From the UHGV virus genome UHGV-0125336: a stretch of DNA of 37,419 bases; one strand, written 5' to 3'. Both the position numbers and the translations under genes were made by a program. Of this stretch, positions 240-8,178 are shown in pieces. Origin of the DNA: a virus. Within the stretch, counting starts at the first letter, position 1; the number at the start of each line of letters is the position of its first letter. The notes under the pieces are model-generated. The model saw only the letters and a program-made list of their open reading frames with translations, searched no databases and was not told the DNA's origin.

Positions 240-1244
240 TTAATCCCCCGTGGACACTGCGTGGACACTTACGCCACCTTTCAGCGGATTAAGGGCCACC
301 GCATCCTGCAGGTAATCCGGTGCAAAATGCGCATATGCCATTGTTTGCTGAATGGTTGCGTGACCAAGAATCTTCTGAAGCGCAATAATGTTTCCTCCGT
401 TCATCACAAAATGGCTGGCGAACGTATGCCGCAGCACATGTGCAGCCTGGCCTTTTGGTAAATCGGGCTTAACTCTTTTCAGCGCCAGGCAGAATTCCCG
501 GTACTTCACCTCAAACAAGCCGCCTGTTTCTCTGGTTTTGATCGCCTCACAAACTGCCTGCGAAATTGGCACTGTTCTCTTCCGGCCATTTTTGGTTTCA
601 AGAAACGTTACACGGTTATGAACTATCTGTTCACCACGAAGCTTACAAGCTTCACTCCAGCGCGCCCCTGTGCTTAAACACAAAAGCGCAACACGCCAGT
701 AGTCGCCCTCCAGTGTATCGAGCAATAGCGCCACTTCCTTCTGTGACAGGAACGCCATTTCTCGTGGAGATACATAAAGAATAGAAATTCCCCTTACTGG
801 ATGTTCTGCATCCCAAAGACCTATTTTTTTCAGCACGGTAAACATTCCGGATAACCGATTCATGTACCTGTTAGCAGATGACGGTTTCAATCCTTCAGCT
901 ATCTTTTGAGAACGCCACGCGATAATTTTCAGCTTATCAAGATCCACAGCCTGCATATCAGCGCCAAGCTCATTGATTATGTTGCGCAGTTGTTTTCGGT
1001 CTTCTTCCGCCTTACGCCTGTGCTGGCCGTGATACATCCACCACAACTCAAGCAAATCATTTAGCGTTCGACGATCACGGTAGCCCTGTATATATTCCCG
1101 CTTTTCAGCGTTCGCCATGATGTAGCGTTCAGTGGCCACCGCTACCGATTTTTTGTCAAATACCTTACGCACGCGCTTTCCCTTGCGTCCGTTCGGCCTG
1201 ATGTCCAGCAAATAACGACCATCTTCGAGCTTCTTAATCGACAT
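240..1244 (-). CDS. int: Tyrosine integrase, P2 Int-like (site-specific recombinase)
   Basis: Translation from ATG at 1244 (MSIKKLEDGRY...) matches P2 Int as recalled, including the C-terminal HxLRHTFASH...ILGH...YAHF catalytic region. GGAGGG RBS 8 nt upstream. The ORF-track start at 1259 is probably 5 codons too far upstream. Confidence 0.9.
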   Translation of the reverse strand: MSIKKLEDGRYLLDIRPNGRKGKRVRKVFDKKSVAVATERYIMANAEKREYIQGYRDRRTLNDLLELWWMYHGQHRRKAEEDRKQLRNIINELGADMQAVDLDKLKIIAWRSQKIAEGLKPSSANRYMNRLSGMFTVLKKIGLWDAEHPVRGISILYVSPREMAFLSQKEVALLLDTLEGDYWRVALLCLSTGARWSEACKLRGEQIVHNRVTFLETKNGRKRTVPISQAVCEAIKTRETGGLFEVKYREFCLALKRVKPDLPKGQAAHVLRHTFASHFVMNGGNIIALQKILGHATIQQTMAYAHFAPDYLQDAVALNPLKGGVSVHAVSTGD

Positions 1245-1340
1245 TACGAAGCCCTCCAATGAACCGCTCTACAATTTCTCCAGCCTCTTTCCAGCAATAA
1301 TCAGACCAGACAAAAAGCAGGTCTAACCAGTTTTCTGGCC

Positions 1341-1661
1341 TCAGCGGGATAATTTTTGGATTGTTTCGGTTGAAACGCGATCTCCCTCCGAATTGCAGGA
1401 ACCATCAAGAGAGAGAGCCGGAGAAATTTGCCCGACCTCCGGCATCGTTTCATCTGTTGATAACCAATAAGCATACTTCTTAAATTTAGGGTGTTTCGTA
1501 ACCTTAAGTAAGGCACCCTCTGTTACTTGCTTCCCCCTCACCTCATAGTTAGTTACCGTCCCATAAGGCAGCCCAACACAATCCGCAAACTCCTGGCGGG
1601 TCATACCTTCTGCTTCACGAATCAGGCGAAATTTTTCACCCATGCTTGACAAAGATGCCAT
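1341..1661 (-). CDS. C: Immunity repressor, P2 C-like
   Basis: Segment ...FADCVGLPYGTVTNYE...KFKKYAYWL...GQISPAL aligns with recalled P2 C (LADLTGVPYGTLSYYE...QFTKYTLWF...GQIAPAL). Placed between int and cox, divergent from cox as in P2. Start chosen at MASLSS; upstream ATGs at 1670 and 1715 are possible. Confidence 0.8.
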   Translation of the reverse strand: MASLSSMGEKFRLIREAEGMTRQEFADCVGLPYGTVTNYEVRGKQVTEGALLKVTKHPKFKKYAYWLSTDETMPEVGQISPALSLDGSCNSEGDRVSTETIQKLSR

Positions 1662-1720
1662 ATCGGGCATATCCTCCATCGCAACATGCCACATCGGGCA
1701 CAAACATAAAAACACTCAAA

Positions 1721-3616: not shown

Positions 3617-3820
3617 ATGGCAATTAAGCATTTTCCTGTCGTTCGTTTTACCTCCAGAGGGCGTGAATACGAAGTCGACGAACGCCTGATTACCACAATC
3701 GACAAACACCGTTCAGAAAAGGATGCACATCACATCTATCTCACTGACGGCACTTACTTCTGCGCCACGAATGTGGTGCGGGTGAACCTTATCCGACAGG
3801 TACAGGAGTCACGCAGATGA
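3617..3820 (+). CDS. Phage early protein, unknown function
   Basis: 67-aa ORF preceded by AAGGAGG. Confidence 0.5.
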   Translation: MAIKHFPVVRFTSRGREYEVDERLITTIDKHRSEKDAHHIYLTDGTYFCATNVVRVNLIRQVQESRR

Positions 3821-4062
3821 CCATTCTGGACTATATCGCCGCCAATCCGGGGTGTAGCGGTGGAGAAATCGCCGCAGCACTGAATACCCCAACCACAGCC
3901 ATTAATGTGGAGTTACGCCGACTCTGGCGCAGCGGTTCAGTCATAAGAAAAGAGCGCAAAACAGGCGGTCGCTTTTCTTACCAGATAAACCCGATGCCGT
4001 TCGGGTGCGGCAATCCACTTACCAACATGTTTAACCAGCTACTGAAGGAAGCCAGAGCATGA
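3817..4062 (+). CDS. Small phage protein, possible winged-helix DNA-binding fold
   Basis: MTILDYIAANPGCSGGEIAAALNTPTTAINVELRRLWRSGSVIRK resembles a wHTH pattern. Start overlaps the stop of the upstream ORF. Confidence 0.5.
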   Translation: MTILDYIAANPGCSGGEIAAALNTPTTAINVELRRLWRSGSVIRKERKTGGRFSYQINPMPFGCGNPLTNMFNQLLKEARA

Positions 4063-4358
4063 GCGCCATCAACCACCAGGAATTACGCGAACTGGCGACT
4101 GACCTGCAACGAATGGCAACGCCTCAAAAATTACTGGCGTTTCGCGCAATGCTCTCGCCGTCTGCTGTGCTGGCGCTGCTGGATGAGCTGGAGCACGCCA
4201 GAACCACACCTCTCGCCATTCGCCTGACGCTCCGTCATGAAATCGAGGATTTCTGCGCGACGTTGGAGGCGCCAGGCGAACCGGAAACGCCGGAAGCAAT
4301 ACAGCAAGAGCTGCTGCAACGCATTGACAAGGTTTTTGATTTTTTTCTGAACCACTAA
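4059..4358 (+). CDS. Phage early protein, unknown function
   Basis: 99-aa acidic, helical ORF. Start overlaps the upstream stop. Confidence 0.5.
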   Translation: MSAINHQELRELATDLQRMATPQKLLAFRAMLSPSAVLALLDELEHARTTPLAIRLTLRHEIEDFCATLEAPGEPETPEAIQQELLQRIDKVFDFFLNH

Positions 4359-4480
4359 GAAACCAGAACATGCACACACAAAAAAACCGCTTGCCATGCC
4401 GCAATCAGTCAGGTTACATTTCCGCTGCACCTCACAAAACGGGTGCCGGGTTTCGCAGCCTGCTGACTACACAAGCGCAC

Positions 4481-4502
4481 AACCGCGCCAGCGGTTTTTT
4501 TG
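4481..4502 (+). terminator. Candidate intrinsic terminator inside the early operon
   Basis: AACCGC-GCCA-GCGGTT hairpin followed by a T7 run, within the 320-bp non-coding gap 4359..4680. Confidence 0.4.
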
Positions 4503-4680
4503 TGCGTACTGTATTGCCACGTTTTTTTCGCGTCAGAATTATGGCGGGGCGTACGGGGCCGACTTCGGTCGGGCCGGGTTCTTGTGTAGCCGGTACTGCG
4601 AACCTCGTACGTCTCGCCACCCACAGTTTCGCAGCTCTGGATGGTGAGTTTTCACAACTTACTACACAAGGGGCCACACC

Positions 4681-4911
4681 ATGGCAAACCGCAAACCACA
4701 CCGCGCTATCGCGGAGCGTCGTCACATCCAGACTGAAATCAACCGCAGACTTTCCCGCGCATCACGCGTCGCGCAAATCATGCACATCAATATGCTGCAT
4801 GAGCGCAGCCACGCACTATCAAACATTTATTCCGCCTCTGTTTTCAGCTATCTGGCGGATGATCTGCACGAGCTTCAACAGCTCATCCAGCAGCAAAACA
4901 AACTCCATTAA
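4681..4911 (+). CDS. Phage early protein, unknown function
   Basis: 76-aa ORF with AAGGGG RBS 8 nt upstream. Confidence 0.5.
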   Translation: MANRKPHRAIAERRHIQTEINRRLSRASRVAQIMHINMLHERSHALSNIYSASVFSYLADDLHELQQLIQQQNKLH

Positions 4912-4983
4912 CTCCTGTTCCGGGCCTTTCCTGCACCTTGCGGCGGGAGGCCTTCGCACATCTGTAACAAGAGGATTGCCGCA

Positions 4984-5349
4984 ATGATTCTCGCCAACGA
5001 CTTTCTTGAATACCTGCTCAACACAGAACGTGATCTTGCCGCTCGCGTGCGTGATCGTTATGACATGTACCTGAAATCCCTGCCTGTACCGCAGCTCGCT
5101 GACGGAAAGATTGTTATTGATGGTCGCTACATGATTGACAGCCACGAGGGAAATTACAGGCTTTACCGCATTGAAGGTGGCACCCCGTCCGTTATTGGCA
5201 TTTACCAGCGCCCATCCACTGCAATCGTCGATGTGATTGCCGACAGCATCCGCATCACACATCGCCATGCCGACACAGAAGACACCGTGCTGGAAATTCA
5301 GCGGCTGGCTACAGTCTGCCGCGACACCCTGAATGGCATGACGAAGTAA
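4984..5349 (+). CDS. Phage early protein, unknown function
   Basis: 121-aa ORF immediately upstream of gene A. Confidence 0.55.
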   Translation: MILANDFLEYLLNTERDLAARVRDRYDMYLKSLPVPQLADGKIVIDGRYMIDSHEGNYRLYRIEGGTPSVIGIYQRPSTAIVDVIADSIRITHRHADTEDTVLEIQRLATVCRDTLNGMTK

Positions 5350-5355
5350 ATCACT

Positions 5356-8178
5356 ATGACGGCAGAGTACATCAGGGACTGGCAACAACCGCGCCACGCA
5401 GTGGGGCGTGAAGGAACGGGGATCCCCGCTCCTGAATCCGCGCTTTCCTCCTGGCTGGATGCCTACCGGGTAGAGAACGAGCACCGCCAGGAAATGGCTG
5501 ATGCGGCGTTCTCCGCAACGCTGCTGGGCAACCTGATTAATAAAAGCCTGGACGCACAGGAAAAACAGGACAAAACCATCACACTGGCAGGAGACGCCAG
5601 AAAACAGGCACGCGGCGCGGTGGATGAAGCCATGGCCTCGCTGCGCCTGCTGCCGTCCTATCTGCGCGATCCGCTTATTCGCCACCTCTCCTTCCTGCGC
5701 AAAAAACAGGAAGCCGATCGCCGGAAAGGCAAAAAGAGCTGGCAGGCTGAACACTACGCGCGCGGAACCCTGCGCAAAATATTCGAACGTCTGGATCGCA
5801 CTGACAGACGCTGGCTGACACCGGGTTATCGCTCCCTTGCCGGACGCGAACGCCTGGACGATTTGCTTTACCTGCCGCAGCTCAACAAACACCAGATACA
5901 GACGCTGGCCACCATGACGGCGGCGATGTTCAGCAGCACCTTCGAAAAACTCTGCGATGGCTTTGGCGCGACTGATGGCGAACTGACCATGGATGTAACG
6001 CTGAAGGCGTATCAGATGCTGGCCCGCATGGCGTTACACCTGCACGCCATGCCTCCACATTATGACGCACTGACAACAGACAAAGACCGGAGGAACGAAC
6101 CGGACACGGAGCTGCTGCCGGGCGCAATCCTCCGCCTGACCTGTGCGGAATGGTGGAAACGCAAACTGTGGCTGTTACGTTGCGAGTGGAGAGAAGAACA
6201 ACTCCGCGCCGCCTGTCTGGTTTCCAGAAAAACATCGCCCTATCTGAGCCAGGACGCGTTAAGCGAGTTTCGCGCACAGCGCGAGAAAACACGCGATTTC
6301 CTGAAAAGTTTCATGCTGGAAAATGAAGACGGGTTCACGATTGATCTCGAGACGGTGTATTACGCGGGAGTAAGTAACCCGGTTCACCGTAAGGCAGAAA
6401 TGATGGCCACCATGAAGGGACTGGAACTTCTGGCCGAAGCCCGTAGCGACAGAGCGGTGTTTCTGACCGTCACCTGCCCGTCAAAATACCACGCAACAAC
6501 GGAGAACGGTCATCCGAACCCCAAATGGAACGGGGCCACCATGCGCGACTCCAGCGATTACCTGGTTAACACGTTTTTTGCGGCAGTCCGCAAAAAACTG
6601 AACCGCGACGGCCTGCGCTGGTATGGCATCCGCACGGTGGAGCCTCACCATGACGGCACCGTGCACTGGCATATGATGGTCTTTGCTCATCCGGAAGAAA
6701 TCGACAGCATCGTGGCCATCACCCGCGATATTGCCATTCAGGAAGATCGTCACGAACTGGGCGATGATATTACTCCGCGCTTTAAGGCGGAGTATGTCGA
6801 CGGCTCAAAAGGCACACCAACCAGCTATATCGCGACCTACATCGGAAAAAACCTGGACAGCCGCGCCGTAGATGGCATCGACCCGAAAACGGGCAAGCCA
6901 CGCGTTGACCACGAAACCGGAAAATCAATGGCCGAGAGCGTGGAGCGCGCCATTGGCTGGGCGCGTCTTCATCGGGTCCGCCAGTTCCAGTTCTTTGGCA
7001 TCCCCTCCCGTCAGGTATGGCGTGAACTCCGCCGCCTTGCCAGCCAGATGGCACGCAACCCGGAAGGCCCGCAACGGCTGAAGGATGATGCAATGGATGC
7101 GGTACTCGCTGCCGCTGATGCCGGGTGTTTTGCCTCCTACATTGAAAAACAGGGTGGCGTGCTTGTTCCACGCAAGGACTACCTGATTCGCACCGCCTAC
7201 GACCTCGCAGATGAGCTGAACGATTACGGCGAACAGAGCGTACAGATTTACGGGATCTGGTCACCACTCATCGGGGAATCCTCCCGTGTGTGCACGCATC
7301 CGGATAACTGGAAGCTGGTAAGACGTAAACCGGAAGCGGAAGACAGCGCCCGCGAAAATGGTTTTGACCTTCAGGGCGGCCCTGCCGCCCCTTGGACTCG
7401 TGGCAATAACTGTCCCCGTGTACAGGAAACGGACAACAACGGGACAGAACAGCCGGAAGAACGGCCAGCACCGTGGCCGCAGCTTCCTGACGGCGTTGAC
7501 GTGAACGAATGGATGCGCTCACTGAAACGGCACGAACGCCGGGCGCTGATGCGTTCGCTTCGTGACAAACAGGCAAAAAACAGCAGTGATGAAATGCAGA
7601 GCTGGACACAGAGCCGCAAACAGCAGCGGCCTTTGCCTGATAACCACGAATTACTCGCTAAAGAATGGCGGGAATCTGCCGAATCTCTCGGCCTGCATAT
7701 CGGTGAACAGCAGATGCAGCACCTGTTACGGGGCGGCAGTCTGTACGTTGACGGCAGCATCATTGCACCGCAGGGATTTGAAATTGTACGCAAACCGGAT
7801 ACCCGACCGGACAGCCGAATCACGCAGCTCTGGCAGCGCCTGAGCCGTAACCACGGCGTAAGCAGTACGGAGATCCGCCATAACCCGGTCGCCAGCTATC
7901 TGGAACAGCTGAGGGCATCAGACCCCGAAGCCGCCGCACGCCTGGCATCCACACTTCAGCAAGACCAGAACACCATGAAAACACCCGTTACCGTGCTTTC
8001 TGACATGCTGCGCGCCATCCGCGACGCAGAGCACGCACAGAGAATCAGTGAAACCACTGAACGCGCCCGCCGCAAAGCAGACCTGCTGCGGGGTGGCCTG
8101 ACCAGTGGAAACAAAAAACAGACAGAAACGGGATTCACAAATCCCGTAAATGAGCAAAAAACGCGCCGCGATATATGA
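5356..8178 (+). CDS. A: Replication initiation endonuclease, P2 gpA-like (rolling-circle)
   Basis: 940-aa ORF in the A position. Contains an HHDGTVHWHMMVF metal-binding HxH-type motif and downstream tyrosines typical of HUH rolling-circle initiators. Confidence 0.9.
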   Translation: MTAEYIRDWQQPRHAVGREGTGIPAPESALSSWLDAYRVENEHRQEMADAAFSATLLGNLINKSLDAQEKQDKTITLAGDARKQARGAVDEAMASLRLLPSYLRDPLIRHLSFLRKKQEADRRKGKKSWQAEHYARGTLRKIFERLDRTDRRWLTPGYRSLAGRERLDDLLYLPQLNKHQIQTLATMTAAMFSSTFEKLCDGFGATDGELTMDVTLKAYQMLARMALHLHAMPPHYDALTTDKDRRNEPDTELLPGAILRLTCAEWWKRKLWLLRCEWREEQLRAACLVSRKTSPYLSQDALSEFRAQREKTRDFLKSFMLENEDGFTIDLETVYYAGVSNPVHRKAEMMATMKGLELLAEARSDRAVFLTVTCPSKYHATTENGHPNPKWNGATMRDSSDYLVNTFFAAVRKKLNRDGLRWYGIRTVEPHHDGTVHWHMMVFAHPEEIDSIVAITRDIAIQEDRHELGDDITPRFKAEYVDGSKGTPTSYIATYIGKNLDSRAVDGIDPKTGKPRVDHETGKSMAESVERAIGWARLHRVRQFQFFGIPSRQVWRELRRLASQMARNPEGPQRLKDDAMDAVLAAADAGCFASYIEKQGGVLVPRKDYLIRTAYDLADELNDYGEQSVQIYGIWSPLIGESSRVCTHPDNWKLVRRKPEAEDSARENGFDLQGGPAAPWTRGNNCPRVQETDNNGTEQPEERPAPWPQLPDGVDVNEWMRSLKRHERRALMRSLRDKQAKNSSDEMQSWTQSRKQQRPLPDNHELLAKEWRESAESLGLHIGEQQMQHLLRGGSLYVDGSIIAPQGFEIVRKPDTRPDSRITQLWQRLSRNHGVSSTEIRHNPVASYLEQLRASDPEAAARLASTLQQDQNTMKTPVTVLSDMLRAIRDAEHAQRISETTERARRKADLLRGGLTSGNKKQTETGFTNPVNEQKTRRDI

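What the first reader, a model, noticed from the sequence alone, without database searches (positions are those of the whole stretch)
4359..4680. Structured 320-bp non-coding island within the early operon
The gap between two early genes contains an intrinsic terminator (4481-4502), a GC-rich UUCG-tetraloop hairpin (about 4560-4580), and the motif ACTACACAAG twice direct (4466, 4661) and once inverted (4581-4589), each direct copy preceded by GTTTCGCAGC. This pattern suggests a regulatory RNA or a protein-binding control region between cox-proximal genes and A. The overlapping GC-rich ORFs are very likely artefacts.
Basis: seen in the sequence. Interest (0 to 1): 0.45.

Follow-up and report, generated by a model that had tools for sequence, protein, structure and literature searches.

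The report
P4-type antisense RNA immunity switch
The 320-bp "gap" in this P2-like E. coli prophage holds a known kind of RNA switch: a small antisense RNA (C4/CI type) plus its leader (isrK/seqA type) that together shut off the next gene, a relative of the phage P4 anti-repressor, so the finding is real but is an unannotated member of a known system.

Summary
Window 4427-4501 matches Rfam isrK (64 bits, cut-off 50). Window 4537-4624 matches Rfam C4 antisense RNA (83 bits, cut-off 45).

The repeated motifs are antisense/target pairs. CTTGTGTAG (b') lies in the C4 loop and CTGCGAA (a') in its 3' junction. They pair with GTTTCGCAG...CTACACAAG upstream (a1, b1, inside isrK) and downstream (a2, b2). 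Site b2 abuts the Shine-Dalgarno sequence of the 76-aa gene at 4681.

Across 161 related loci there are about 13 b' loop variants and 5 a' variants. All three sites co-vary, with G.U pairs tolerated (98-99% paired, 0 of 500 shuffles as good). This indicates RNA-RNA pairing and argues against a protein-binding site.

The layout matches P4 immunity (PLE-seqA-cI-seqC), P1 c4-icd-ant and Gifsy-1 IsrK. The controlled gene is a distant homologue of P4 epsilon, the anti-repressor of P2 C.

One claim needs correcting. The + strand 205-aa ORF (4370-4987) that crosses the RNAs hits Pfam Phage_ASH and stays open in relatives. It resembles P4 eta, whose translation prevents termination. Verdict: a new, unannotated member of a known kind, of modest interest.

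The parts
4370..4987 (+). 205-aa ORF crossing the promoter, both RNAs, the targets and the whole 76-aa gene (in that gene's +1 frame). Its stop overlaps the ATG of the next gene (ATGA at 4984-4987). Proposed eta-like read-through ORF.
   Evidence: Pfam Phage_ASH 26.5 bits, cut-off 26, residues 16-109; open in at least 83 of 95 unique relatives; ATG kept in 5 upstream contexts.
4391..4420 (+). Sigma-70-like promoter (TTGCCA, 18 nt, TACATT). The predicted start is about G4427, the first base of the isrK match. It is positionally equivalent to P4 PLE.
   Evidence: It sits at the same aligned position in P4, mEp460 and ST64B and is conserved in relatives. Activity was not tested.
4427..4501 (+). 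isrK-like leader RNA, the P4 seqA equivalent: hairpin 1, hairpin 2 presenting a1, single-stranded b1, then the terminator.
   Evidence: Rfam RF01394, 64.1 bits, cut-off 50. Fold.
4450..4459 (+). Upstream target a1 (GTTTCGCAGC).
4466..4475 (+). Upstream target b1 (ACTACACAAG).
4481..4502 (+). Intrinsic terminator of the isrK-like leader, the P4 t1 equivalent.
   Evidence: It is the 3' hairpin of the Rfam isrK model.
4537..4624 (+). C4/CI-type antisense RNA. A 17-bp closing stem (4542-4558 with 4603-4619) encloses the UUCG hairpin (4559-4572) and hairpin 2 (4573-4594).
   Evidence: Rfam RF01695, 83.2 bits, cut-off 45. MFE -47.6 kcal/mol, z -4.06. 99.8% of cells paired and 11 compensatory pairs.
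4581..4589 (+). Antisense element b' (CTTGTGTAG) in the loop of hairpin 2.
4596..4602 (+). Antisense element a' (CTGCGAA) in the single-stranded junction 3' of hairpin 2.
4626..4635 (+). Downstream target a2 (GTTTCGCAGC).
4661..4673 (+). Downstream target b2 (ACTACACAAG, 4661-4670), overlapping the Shine-Dalgarno-like AAGGGG (4668-4673) of the gene starting at 4681.
   Evidence: The same b2-SD-ATG layout is found in P4, mEp460 and ST64B.
4681..4911 (+). 76-aa gene, a distant homologue of the P4 epsilon (E) anti-repressor. Proposed as the regulated gene.
   Evidence: Pfam PF25738 Derepression, 32.5 bits, cut-off 27. 29% identity over 66 aa to P4 epsilon, E 4e-9. Reciprocal PHROG hits.
4984..5349 (+). 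121-aa gene of unknown function (phrog_3237). Its ATG overlaps the stop of the crossing ORF.
5356..8178 (+). Replication gene A, the essential gene that lies downstream of the switch.
   Evidence: Pfam Phage_GPA, 432.8 bits.

Best explanation
The gap is a P4/P1-type antisense-RNA immunity module inside the early operon of a P88-like (Xuanwuvirus, P2-family) prophage.

**Shown by sequence and comparison**
- A promoter-like site (4391-4420) sits just upstream of an isrK/seqA-type leader (4427-4501). The leader carries target sites a1 and b1 and ends in an intrinsic terminator.
- After a 35-nt spacer comes a C4/CI-type RNA (about 4542-4623). It exposes b' in a hairpin loop and a' in a single-stranded junction.
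- A second pair of targets follows. Site a2 is at 4626-4635, and b2 at 4661-4670 abuts the Shine-Dalgarno sequence of a 76-aa homologue of the P4 epsilon anti-repressor.
- a'/b' and both target pairs co-vary across relatives, giving many specificity types.

**Inferred from the P4, P1 and Gifsy-1 systems**
- In a lysogen the internal promoter makes the leader plus C4, and C4 is cut out of read-through transcripts. In P1 and P4 this cut is made by RNase P.
- C4 pairs with a1/b1 and strengthens termination at 4502.
- C4 also pairs with a2/b2 and blocks ribosome binding at 4681. The untranslated RNA is then prone to Rho termination.
- The anti-repressor homologue, the 121-aa gene and A therefore stay off, and a superinfecting phage of the same specificity is blocked.
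- During lytic growth, transcripts from the early promoter Pe carry the ATG at 4370. That ATG lies upstream of the internal start site, so only Pe transcripts have it.
- Ribosomes translating the 205-aa crossing ORF would run over the terminator, C4 and the targets. This would make Pe transcripts insensitive to the switch and hand over to the next gene at the ATGA overlap, as reported for P4 eta.
For: **RNA identity**
- Rfam isrK and C4 both match above their gathering scores in the window. The same pair is found in P88, Shae_phiSM and P4, in mEp460, ST64B and Stx2a_1447, and in E. albertii L004 and E. coli L085.
- The C4 fold has MFE -47.6 kcal/mol and z -4.06. Its stems are 99.8% paired with 11 compensatory pairs, and 0 of 500 shuffles match this.

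**Three-site covariation**
- In 161 loci (95 unique sequences) there are about 13 genuine b' loops (14 strings including the L075 duplication) and 5 a' elements.
- Nearly all cognate pairs form 8-9 of 9 pairs, some with G.U. L100 is the one mismatched exception.
- Formal counts: 98.8% paired upstream and 98.0% downstream. Covariation scores are 0.66 against 0.13 for shuffles, with 0 of 500 shuffles as high. Slid registers pair only 26-52%.
- Duplex energy is -23.6 kcal/mol for cognate pairs and -10.9 for non-cognate pairs.

**Layout and regulated gene**
- The a1 b1 / b' a' / a2 b2-SD-ATG layout and the promoter position are the same in P4, mEp460 and ST64B.
- The regulated gene hits the Pfam Derepression family and resembles P4 epsilon.

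**Crossing ORF**
- It hits Phage_ASH and reads the RNAs in the same frame as the mEp460 Rha long ORF.
- P4 has an equivalent 214-aa ORF at 8812-8168.
- In 78 gap-free relatives it has only 3 singleton stops over 618 nt, against 19-24 stop positions in three of the other frames.
- Given the protein sequence and the phage's codon usage, the +1 frame of the epsilon-like gene would stay open with probability 0.046 (window allele) or 0.007 (Shae allele).

**Literature**
- The homology of IsrK to seqA and of C4 to CI, and of the P4, P1, P7 and N15 systems: PMC3632133.
- The P4 eta mechanism: PMC10111431, summarising Forti 1999.
- Gifsy-1 IsrK, orf45 and STnc1160: PMC4825925.
- P4 E binds P2 C: PMC2995052.
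Against: - Nothing was measured. No transcript ends, processing, termination or translation data exist for this phage.
- The promoter is only a 9-of-12 consensus match.
- Similarity of the 76-aa protein to P4 epsilon is weak (29% identity, 32.5 bits), and its target repressor is unknown.
- Unlike P4 and the lambdoid phages, the crossing ORF is not in frame with the regulated gene. There is also no Icd/Kil-like first gene.
- The stop-avoidance test is not decisive. One minus-strand frame is also open across 4432-4762 in all relatives. With the gene's own codons permuted, the +1 frame stays open 19-29% of the time. The ORF is broken in 3 of 95 unique relatives and shortened in one.
- The Gifsy-1 work gives the short IsrK RNA an activating role, not a repressing one.
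Confidence: 0.8

Rival explanations
1. Gifsy-1-type activation. The short terminated isrK-like RNA acts in trans as an anti-antisense. Its a1/b1 sites bind the a'/b' segment of the read-through transcript or of free C4. This releases a2/b2 and the ribosome-binding site, so the leader switches the anti-repressor gene on rather than helping to keep it off.
For: - In Gifsy-1, IsrK expressed in trans raises anrP translation more than 100-fold. Compensatory mutations (G28A/C162U and G31A/C159U) show pairing between the middle of IsrK and the region corresponding to C4 (PMC4825925).
- The window has the same parts, including an in-frame AUG at 4541 at the 5' end of C4, where Gifsy-1 orf45 starts.
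- Sites a1/b1 and a2/b2 are near-identical competitors for a'/b'.
Against: - In P4 the same upstream site is needed for CI-dependent termination and for establishing immunity (PMC3632133, PMC4825925 discussion).
- The activation was seen with over-expressed IsrK.
- The two roles are not exclusive, because the outcome depends on the IsrK:C4 ratio. Nothing in the sequence discriminates between them.
Confidence: 0.3
2. The region is protein-coding. The 205-aa 'Ash family' ORF encodes a functional protein, and the RNA-model matches and repeats are by-products.
For: - The ORF hits Pfam Phage_ASH at the cut-off, and PGAP labels the region 'ash family protein'.
- It is open in most relatives.
Against: - Where the RNA may vary, the peptide changes freely, for example GFRSLLTTQ, GISTPLTTT and GIGTPLTTK.
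- Substitutions in the stems are compensatory for pairing.
- Three separated sites co-vary as complements.
- The translation is low-complexity (rich in S, T, R and P) and diverges as fast as the overlapped epsilon-like frame.
- The ORF is broken in some otherwise intact-looking relatives.
- Phage_ASH matches exactly the isrK-C4 span in unrelated long ORFs, as expected if it is simply the translation of a conserved RNA.
Confidence: 0.05
3. The repeats are DNA operators for a phage protein, for example the 76-aa product or the winged-helix protein at 3817-4062.
For: There are direct and inverted copies of 9-10-bp motifs within 250 bp, and DNA-binding-type genes lie nearby.
Against: - Variants keep complementarity, not identity, between the inverted copy and the direct copies, and they tolerate G.U but not A.C (L076, L085). 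This is meaningless for duplex DNA.
- The inverted copies sit exactly in the loop and junction of a high-scoring C4 structure.
- P4 E has no DNA-binding capacity of its own (PMC2995052).
Confidence: 0.02
4. Chance repeats in a GC-rich spacer.
For: The motif count alone is only marginal.
Against: Two independent Rfam hits have E-values of 1e-11 and 4e-15. No shuffle reached the observed covariation on three structures.
Confidence: 0.01

Closest known systems
Satellite phage P4 immunity region (PLE - seqA - cI/CI RNA - seqC - kil/eta - epsilon - ... - alpha)
   Same: - The order of parts and the aligned positions match: promoter, isrK-type leader with a1/b1 and an intrinsic terminator, C4-type RNA with b' and a', then a2 and b2-SD-ATG.
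- A long ORF starts upstream of the internal promoter and reads across both RNAs (P4 8812-8168, 214 aa; window 4370-4987, 205 aa).
- An epsilon-family gene and then the replication gene lie downstream.
   Different: - The host element is a complete P2-family phage, not a satellite.
- The first gene after b2 is the epsilon homologue itself. There is no Icd-like kil.
- The crossing ORF is out of frame with that gene and overlaps all of it, ending at the next gene's ATG. It is not nested in frame.
- The C4-to-ATG distance is 56 nt here, against about 55 nt to kil and 245 nt to epsilon in P4.
- The specificity sequences differ (b TTCACAGG in P4).
- The replication gene is A (rolling-circle type), not the alpha primase.
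Phage P1/P7 immI operon (c4 - icd - ant)
   Same: A C4 antisense RNA of the same Rfam family is co-transcribed with its target. It has two antisense elements complementary to sites up- and downstream. The downstream site covers the ribosome-binding site of the first gene. The output is control of an anti-repressor (Rfam; Citron & Schuster 1990 as cited in PMC3632133; details of a2/b2 and the icd RBS are from my own knowledge).
   Different: The anti-repressor here is epsilon-type, not Ant, and there is no icd. The module sits inside a P2-type early operon upstream of the replication gene.
Gifsy-1 isrK - STnc1160 - orf45 - anrP locus (Salmonella)
   Same: It has an isrK-family leader with terminator read-through, a processed RNA downstream, an ORF starting at the AUG at the 5' end of the C4-like RNA, and an anti-repressor-like gene as the output (PMC4825925).
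   Different: The published role of short IsrK is activation in trans. The downstream gene is AnrP (a Rha/anti-repressor-like protein acting on AntQ), and the host is a lambdoid prophage.
Lambdoid phages mEp460, ST64B and Stx2a_1447 ('Rha/antirepressor' gene)
   Same: They carry the isrK + C4 pair with their own a/b specificities and a b2-SD-ATG layout. A long ORF crosses the RNAs in the same frame, 43% identical to the window's ORF over 88 aa, and hits Phage_ASH.
   Different: There the crossing ORF is fused in frame to a Rha domain, giving a 383-aa annotated protein. The module lies between cII and the replication genes.
Phage-plasmid N15 anti-immunity (CA RNA - antC)
   Same: A small processed RNA controls an anti-repressor (Ravin 1999 as cited in PMC3632133).
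   Different: It was not analysed here. The anti-repressor and the genome type are different.

Membership tests
Rfam RF01695 C4 antisense RNA | Covariance-model score at or above the gathering score, full length | tested here: met
   83.2 bits against 45, model positions 1-87 of 87, E 4.3e-15.
Rfam RF01695 C4 antisense RNA | Long closing stem enclosing two hairpins, supported by compensatory changes | tested here: met
   27 pairs, 99.8% of cells paired, 11 pairs with changes on both sides, 0 of 500 shuffles as high. Slid registers pair 33-46%.
Rfam RF01695 C4 antisense RNA | Two exposed elements (a', b') complementary to sites upstream and downstream on the same transcript | tested here: met
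   b' is in the loop and a' in the junction of the MFE fold.
Rfam RF01695 C4 antisense RNA | Downstream target overlaps the ribosome-binding site of the first downstream gene | tested here: met
   b2 at 4662-4670, AAGGGG at 4668-4673, ATG at 4681. The same holds in P4, mEp460 and ST64B.
Rfam RF01695 C4 antisense RNA | Matured from a longer transcript by RNase P | not testable with these tools
   Only the tRNA-acceptor-like stem followed by ACCC (4619-4622) can be seen.
Rfam RF01394 isrK / P4 seqA leader | Covariance-model score at or above the gathering score | tested here: met
   64.1 bits against 50, model positions 1-77 of 77.
Rfam RF01394 isrK / P4 seqA leader | Begins at a promoter and ends in a Rho-independent terminator | tested here: met
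   TTGCCA-18-TACATT ends 7 nt before the first base of the match. The terminator is at 4481-4501. The promoter aligns with those of P4, mEp460 and ST64B. This is sequence-level evidence only.
Rfam RF01394 isrK / P4 seqA leader | Hfq binding | not testable with these tools
   -
P4-type immunity region | Order: promoter, seqA, t1, cI, seqC, first translated gene | tested here: met
P4-type immunity region | Long ORF (eta) starting upstream of the internal promoter and reading across the RNAs | tested here: met
   ORF 4370-4987. It hits Phage_ASH, is open in at least 83 of 95 unique relatives, and P4 has an equivalent at 8812-8168. Translation itself was not tested.
P4-type immunity region | First gene after seqC (kil, Icd-like) is the in-frame terminal part of eta (nested genes) | tested here: not met
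   The first gene is epsilon-like and lies in a different frame from the crossing ORF. There is no phage_ICD_like hit, whereas the P4 ORF hits it at 73.9 bits.
P4-type immunity region | Rho-dependent terminator (timm) in the first gene | not testable with these tools
   The P4 timm coordinates are from PMC3177188. There is no predictor here.
P4-type immunity region | Resides in a P4-like satellite | tested here: not met
   The window is a complete P88-like P2-family phage with capsid, portal, terminase and A genes.
Pfam PF25738 Derepression protein (P4 epsilon/E) | HMM score at or above the gathering score | tested here: met
   32.5 bits against 27. BLASTP to P4 epsilon gives 29% identity over 66 aa, E 4e-9. 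PHROGs 3688 and 10016 hit each other's members.
Pfam PF25738 Derepression protein (P4 epsilon/E) | Binds and inactivates a P2-family C repressor | not testable with these tools
   The function is known for P4 E only (PMC2995052).
Pfam PF10554 Phage_ASH | HMM score at or above the gathering score | tested here: met
   26.5 bits against 26, which is marginal, over residues 16-109 (nt 4415-4696).

The most novel reading that the evidence does not exclude
The 205-aa ORF is a new variant of the P4 eta device: a 'bypass' reading frame whose product is irrelevant. It starts upstream of the internal promoter, so only early-promoter (Pe) transcripts can translate it.

On those transcripts, ribosomes would run over the terminator, the C4 RNA and both target sites. 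Unlike eta, they would then continue out of frame through the entire anti-repressor gene and deliver themselves to the next gene at an ATGA overlap. Lytic transcripts would therefore reach replication gene A regardless of RNA immunity, and might at the same time not make the anti-repressor.

The Pfam family Phage_ASH would then be the translation of an RNA module that has to stay open in one frame. P4's immunity-epsilon block would share ancestry with a block of genuine P2-family helper-type phages.
Probability: 0.4. Interest if true: 0.5.

Novelty: new member of a known kind. Interest (0 to 1): 0.3.

Why it matters
**Annotation.** At least 80% of window 4360-4990 is present in 1153 of 5426 complete E. 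coli genomes. The window's exact specificity is in 401 of them. The RNAs are rarely annotated: the listed records show 'none', 'hypothetical protein' or a pseudo 'ash family protein'.

**Biology.**
- It places a P1/P4-style second, RNA-based layer of immunity in front of an epsilon-type anti-repressor and the replication gene of a P2-family phage.
- Near-identical phages carry about 13 b and 5 a specificities that reassort. This is a natural set of orthogonal antisense/target pairs and a likely basis for heteroimmunity among these prophages.
- The P4 immunity-plus-epsilon block has a counterpart in helper-type phages. A survey of P4-like elements found delta to be the only P4-specific gene with clear homologues in P2-like phages (PMC8628076).

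**Caution for others.** Pfam PF10554, used as the 'epsilon' marker in that survey, actually matches the translation of the isrK-C4 region. It also hits P88-like phages and lambdoid Rha genes.

Tried and rejected
- **Genome-contig scan** with the 76-aa protein gave only one locus, E. albertii. IMG/VR gave the usable set.
- **Forti 1999** (PMC94026) is not held. The eta mechanism is therefore cited through PMC10111431.
- **Inverted repeat I1** (4374-4394 with 4487-4507, 21 nt, 90% complementary) was considered as a Pe-specific antiterminator and dropped. It is essentially an A7CCGC run facing the terminator's GCGGU7. The A-tract lies 41-47 nt upstream of the predicted start, where a promoter UP element would sit, and P4 has no counterpart.
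- **Second promoter-like site** (4514-4542) would start inside the C4 stem and is weaker in P88, so it was not adopted.
- **SNP-in-reference-background test** for stop avoidance was uninformative: 6 observed against 9.4 expected. Counting real stops per frame was clearer, but it showed that minus frame 2 is also open, so the test is suggestive only.
- **BLASTP comparisons.** The crossing ORF against P4 eta is not significant. The 121-aa ORF is not like P4 orf151.
- **Family searches.** NCBIfam has no model for the 76-aa, 121-aa or 205-aa products. No tRNA or tmRNA is present.
- **Literature.** No paper describing this module in P88-like phages was found.
- **Not run.** The large protein searches and structure prediction would not have changed the verdict.
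Full report
**1. What is in the sequence**

The window is a P88-like (Xuanwuvirus, P2-family) prophage.
- Window 1-25000 matches phages PhiR44_2, Shae_phiSM and P88 at 93-95% identity over 75-85% of its length.
- Window 4300-4950 is 100% identical to Xuanwuvirus P884B11.
- The left end has an integrase (240-1259, minus strand) and a C-type repressor (1341-1715, minus strand). The early operon follows on the plus strand: cox (1775-2062), several small genes, a winged-helix protein (3817-4062) and a weak Ead/Ea22-like ORF (4059-4358).
- After the gap come a 76-aa ORF (4681-4911), a 121-aa ORF (4984-5349) and replication gene A (5356-8178).

- The terminator is AACCGC/GCGGTT at 4481-4496 plus a U run.
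- The UUCG hairpin is at 4559-4572.
- ACTACACAAG is at 4466 and 4661, with its complement at 4581-4589.
- GTTTCGCAGC is at 4450 and 4626.

**2. What it is**

A search of the whole window against Rfam gave exactly two hits above the curated cut-offs, both inside the gap on the plus strand.
- isrK (RF01394) at 4427-4501: 64.1 bits, cut-off 50.
- C4 antisense RNA (RF01695) at 4537-4624: 83.2 bits, cut-off 45.

- The terminator is the 3' hairpin of isrK.
- The UUCG hairpin is the first inner hairpin of C4.
- The inverted motif CTTGTGTAG (b') is the loop of the second inner hairpin.
- CTGCGAA (a') is the single-stranded junction before the 3' strand of the closing stem (fold: -47.6 kcal/mol, z -4.06).
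- The direct copies are targets. Sites a1 and b1 lie inside the isrK-like leader. Sites a2 and b2 lie downstream of C4, with b2 (4662-4670) running into the AAGGGG Shine-Dalgarno-like sequence 8 nt before the ATG at 4681.
- A sigma-70-like promoter (TTGCCA at 4391, 18 nt, TACATT ending at 4420) ends 7 nt before the first base of the isrK match.

**3. Comparative evidence**

The same isrK + C4 pair is found in the following.
- P88, Citrobacter phage Shae_phiSM and satellite phage P4 (isrK 8692-8615, C4 8507-8420, minus strand).
- The lambdoid phages mEp460, ST64B and Stx2a_1447.
- E. albertii (L004) and E. coli (L085).

Alignments show the same order in all of them, each with its own sequences: promoter, a1, b1, terminator, C4 with b' and a', a2, then b2-SD-ATG.

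I collected 161 P88-like loci, 95 of them unique.
- The set holds 21 specificity combinations, built from about 13 genuine b' loops (14 strings, one being the L075 duplication) and 5 a' elements. The a and b types reassort.
- Nearly all cognate b':b1 and b':b2 duplexes form 8-9 of 9 pairs, including G.U wobble in L076 and L085. In the first set of loci, non-cognate combinations averaged 5.9 of 9.

Formal counts were made on a 16-sequence gap-free alignment (A6).

| Pairing | Cells paired | Cells changed on both sides | Covariation score (shuffles) | Shuffles as high | Slid registers |
|---|---|---|---|---|---|
| Upstream (a':a1, b':b1), | 98.8% | 60 | 0.664 (0.130) | 0/500 | 26-52% |
| Downstream (a':a2, b':b2), | 98.0% | 60 | 0.655 (0.128) | 0/500 | 36-50% |

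- Predicted duplex energies are -23.6 kcal/mol for cognate pairs and -10.9 kcal/mol for non-cognate pairs.
- The C4 stems are 99.8% paired, with 11 pairs showing compensatory change.

This pattern is the signature of RNA-RNA recognition. It argues against DNA operators, against a protein-coding explanation of the repeats, and against chance.

**4. The regulated gene**

The 76-aa product reaches the cut-off of the Pfam family 'Derepression protein' (PF25738, 32.5 bits against 27). It aligns with P4 epsilon at 29% identity over 66 residues, E 4e-9. The two PHROG families hit each other's members. P4 epsilon (E) is an anti-repressor that binds the P2 C repressor and does not bind DNA itself (PMC2995052).

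In P4 the gene order after the RNAs is kil, epsilon, orf151, cnr, alpha. Here it is the epsilon-like gene, orf121, then A. orf121 is not similar to P4 orf151.

**5. The overlapping ORFs**

The minus-strand ORFs have no family match and are probably artefacts. This includes the 'hypothetical protein' annotated in P88 at 5033-5221.

The plus-strand ORF 4370-4987 (205 aa) is different.
- Its residues 16-109, which are exactly the isrK-C4 span, reach the Pfam Phage_ASH cut-off (26.5 bits against 26).
- It aligns with residues 117-201 of the 383-aa 'Rha' protein of mEp460 (43% identity, E 1e-15). In mEp460, ST64B and Stx2a_1447 the isrK-C4 pair lies inside that annotated gene. The gene is Phage_ASH followed by a Rha domain.
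- P4 has an equivalent 214-aa ORF (8812-8168). It starts upstream of the internal promoter, crosses both RNAs and ends as the Icd-like kil.

The literature describes this P4 ORF as eta. It can be translated only from the upstream promoter and is translationally coupled to the preceding gene. 'Eta translation prevents termination', so upstream transcripts read through (PMC10111431, summarising Forti et al. 1999, which I could not open). In Gifsy-1, orf45 starts at the AUG at the 5' end of the C4-like RNA, and its translation is needed for expression of the downstream gene (PMC4825925). The window has that AUG at 4541, in frame with the 205-aa ORF.

Tests of the ORF in relatives gave the following.
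- It runs from an ATG at -311 or -314 (relative to the epsilon-like ATG) to a stop that overlaps the next gene's ATG (ATGA) in at least 83 of 95 unique sequences. It is broken in three and shortened in one.
- The ATG is retained at the left edge of the module in at least five different upstream gene contexts. Several of these have a Shine-Dalgarno-like motif or an upstream stop codon 8-12 nt away.
- In 78 gap-free sequences this frame has only three singleton stops in 618 nt. Three of the other frames have 19-24 stop positions. However, one minus-strand frame is also open over 4432-4762.
- Resampling synonymous codons with the phage's own usage leaves the +1 frame of the epsilon-like gene open in 4.6% of trials (window allele) and 0.7% (Shae allele). 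Permuting the gene's own codons leaves it open in 29% and 19%.
- Where the RNA varies, the peptide varies freely.

My reading is that the frame is kept open and is probably translated, with probability about 0.5. Its amino-acid 'conservation' follows the RNA, and the product itself is unlikely to matter.

**6. How it most likely works**

*Shown:* the parts, their order, the pairing potential and its covariation, and the homology of the downstream gene.

*Inferred from P4, P1 and Gifsy-1:*
- In a lysogen C represses Pe, but the internal promoter stays active. Most of its transcripts end at 4502.
- Read-through transcripts yield C4 by processing.
- C4 pairs with a1/b1, which strengthens termination. 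In P4, CI RNA plus seqA enhance termination at t1 (Briani 2000, cited in PMC4825925).
- C4 also pairs with a2/b2, which occludes the ribosome-binding site at 4681 and exposes the RNA to Rho.
- The epsilon-like anti-repressor, orf121 and A are thus kept off. An incoming phage of the same a/b type is held in check, while other types escape, giving heteroimmunity.
- In lytic growth, Pe transcripts carry ATG 4370, and translating ribosomes override the switch.

The short isrK-like RNA may in addition titrate C4 and act positively, as in the Gifsy-1 model. The sequence cannot decide between these roles.

**7. Comparison and novelty**

Barquist et al. (PMC3632133) already equated IsrK with P4 seqA and C4 with P4 CI RNA. 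They also noted such pairs in P1, P7, N15 and lambdoid prophages. The kind is therefore known, and membership of both Rfam families is met.

It is not a member of the P4 element class, for three reasons.
- The host is a full P2-family phage.
- There is no kil.
- The crossing ORF is out of frame with the regulated gene.

I found no paper describing the module in P88-like phages. The database records examined do not annotate the RNAs.

Verdict: a real feature and a new, unannotated member of a known kind. There are two modestly interesting twists: an epsilon-type anti-repressor as the output in a helper-type phage, and an out-of-frame eta-like bypass ORF. There is also a rich natural set of specificity variants. 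Interest 0.3.

Noticed in passing
L100 (IMGVR_UViG_2565956729_000013), region equivalent to window 4467-4670: A natural mismatch. Targets b1 and b2 are CAACCAAAG, but the C4 loop is CTGTAGTTG (P88 type), giving only 7 of 9 pairs, while a/a' are cognate. It looks like a recombinant whose C4 no longer matches its own targets, possibly immunity-defective or an escape variant.
   Followed up: no
L075 (IMGVR_UViG_2582580934_000004), region equivalent to window 4573-4594: The C4 hairpin 2 carries a 17-nt insertion. Two b' loops of different specificity sit in tandem: CTTTGCTCT (L031 type), then CTTGTGTAG (window type). This may be a dual-specificity antisense RNA.
   Followed up: no
window 4415-4696 (residues 16-109 of ORF 4370-4987); L086 1141-2292; L003 8168-8584: Pfam PF10554 (Phage_ASH) matches the translation of the isrK-C4 RNA region in P88-like phages, lambdoid Rha genes and P4. 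A published survey of P4-like satellites used PF10554 as its 'epsilon' marker (PMC8628076). The true epsilon family is PF25738.
   Followed up: partly
L086 1141-2292, L087 1147-2304, L088 1146-2297: In lambdoid phages mEp460, ST64B and Stx2a_1447 the whole isrK-C4 pair, with its promoter and terminator, lies inside a single annotated 383-385-aa 'Rha/antirepressor' CDS. This implies nested long and short forms like P4 eta and kil.
   Followed up: partly
L001 (P88, KP063541) 5033-5221 minus strand; RefSeq E. coli records: GenBank annotates a minus-strand 'hypothetical protein' over the RNA genes in P88. RefSeq genomes mostly show nothing, 'hypothetical protein', or a pseudo 'ash family protein' there, so the two RNAs appear unannotated in the records examined.
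   Followed up: partly
window 4640-4649 and 4613-4619: GAUGGUGAG just downstream of a2 can pair with the 3' strand of the C4 closing stem (CUCGCCA; perfect in P88, where the strand is CUCACCA). This would be an alternative structure competing with C4 folding, like the A/B conformers described for Gifsy-1. It was seen by eye in alignments A1 and A6 and not tested.
   Followed up: no
window 4374-4394 and 4487-4507: A 21-nt inverted repeat (90% complementary) pairs the A-tract upstream of the internal promoter with the terminator's 3' half and U run. It is most simply a promoter UP-like A-tract facing a U-tract. An antiterminator role in Pe transcripts was not excluded.
   Followed up: partly
window 4819-5892 minus strand: A 357-aa ORF lies antisense to orf121 and the start of gene A. 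It is almost certainly spurious and shows that long open frames arise by chance in this GC-rich DNA.
   Followed up: no
window 5356-8178: The A protein is 940 aa, but the Phage_GPA domain covers only residues 179-503. The N-terminal 178 and C-terminal roughly 440 residues are unassigned.
   Followed up: no
window 4359-4377 and equivalents in L001, L002, L033, L081: The module is a mobile cassette. Homology among relatives begins at or just before the ATG at 4370, downstream of at least five unrelated upstream genes, including Ead/Ea22-like and SPFH-domain genes and an annotated 'DNA binding protein'.
   Followed up: partly
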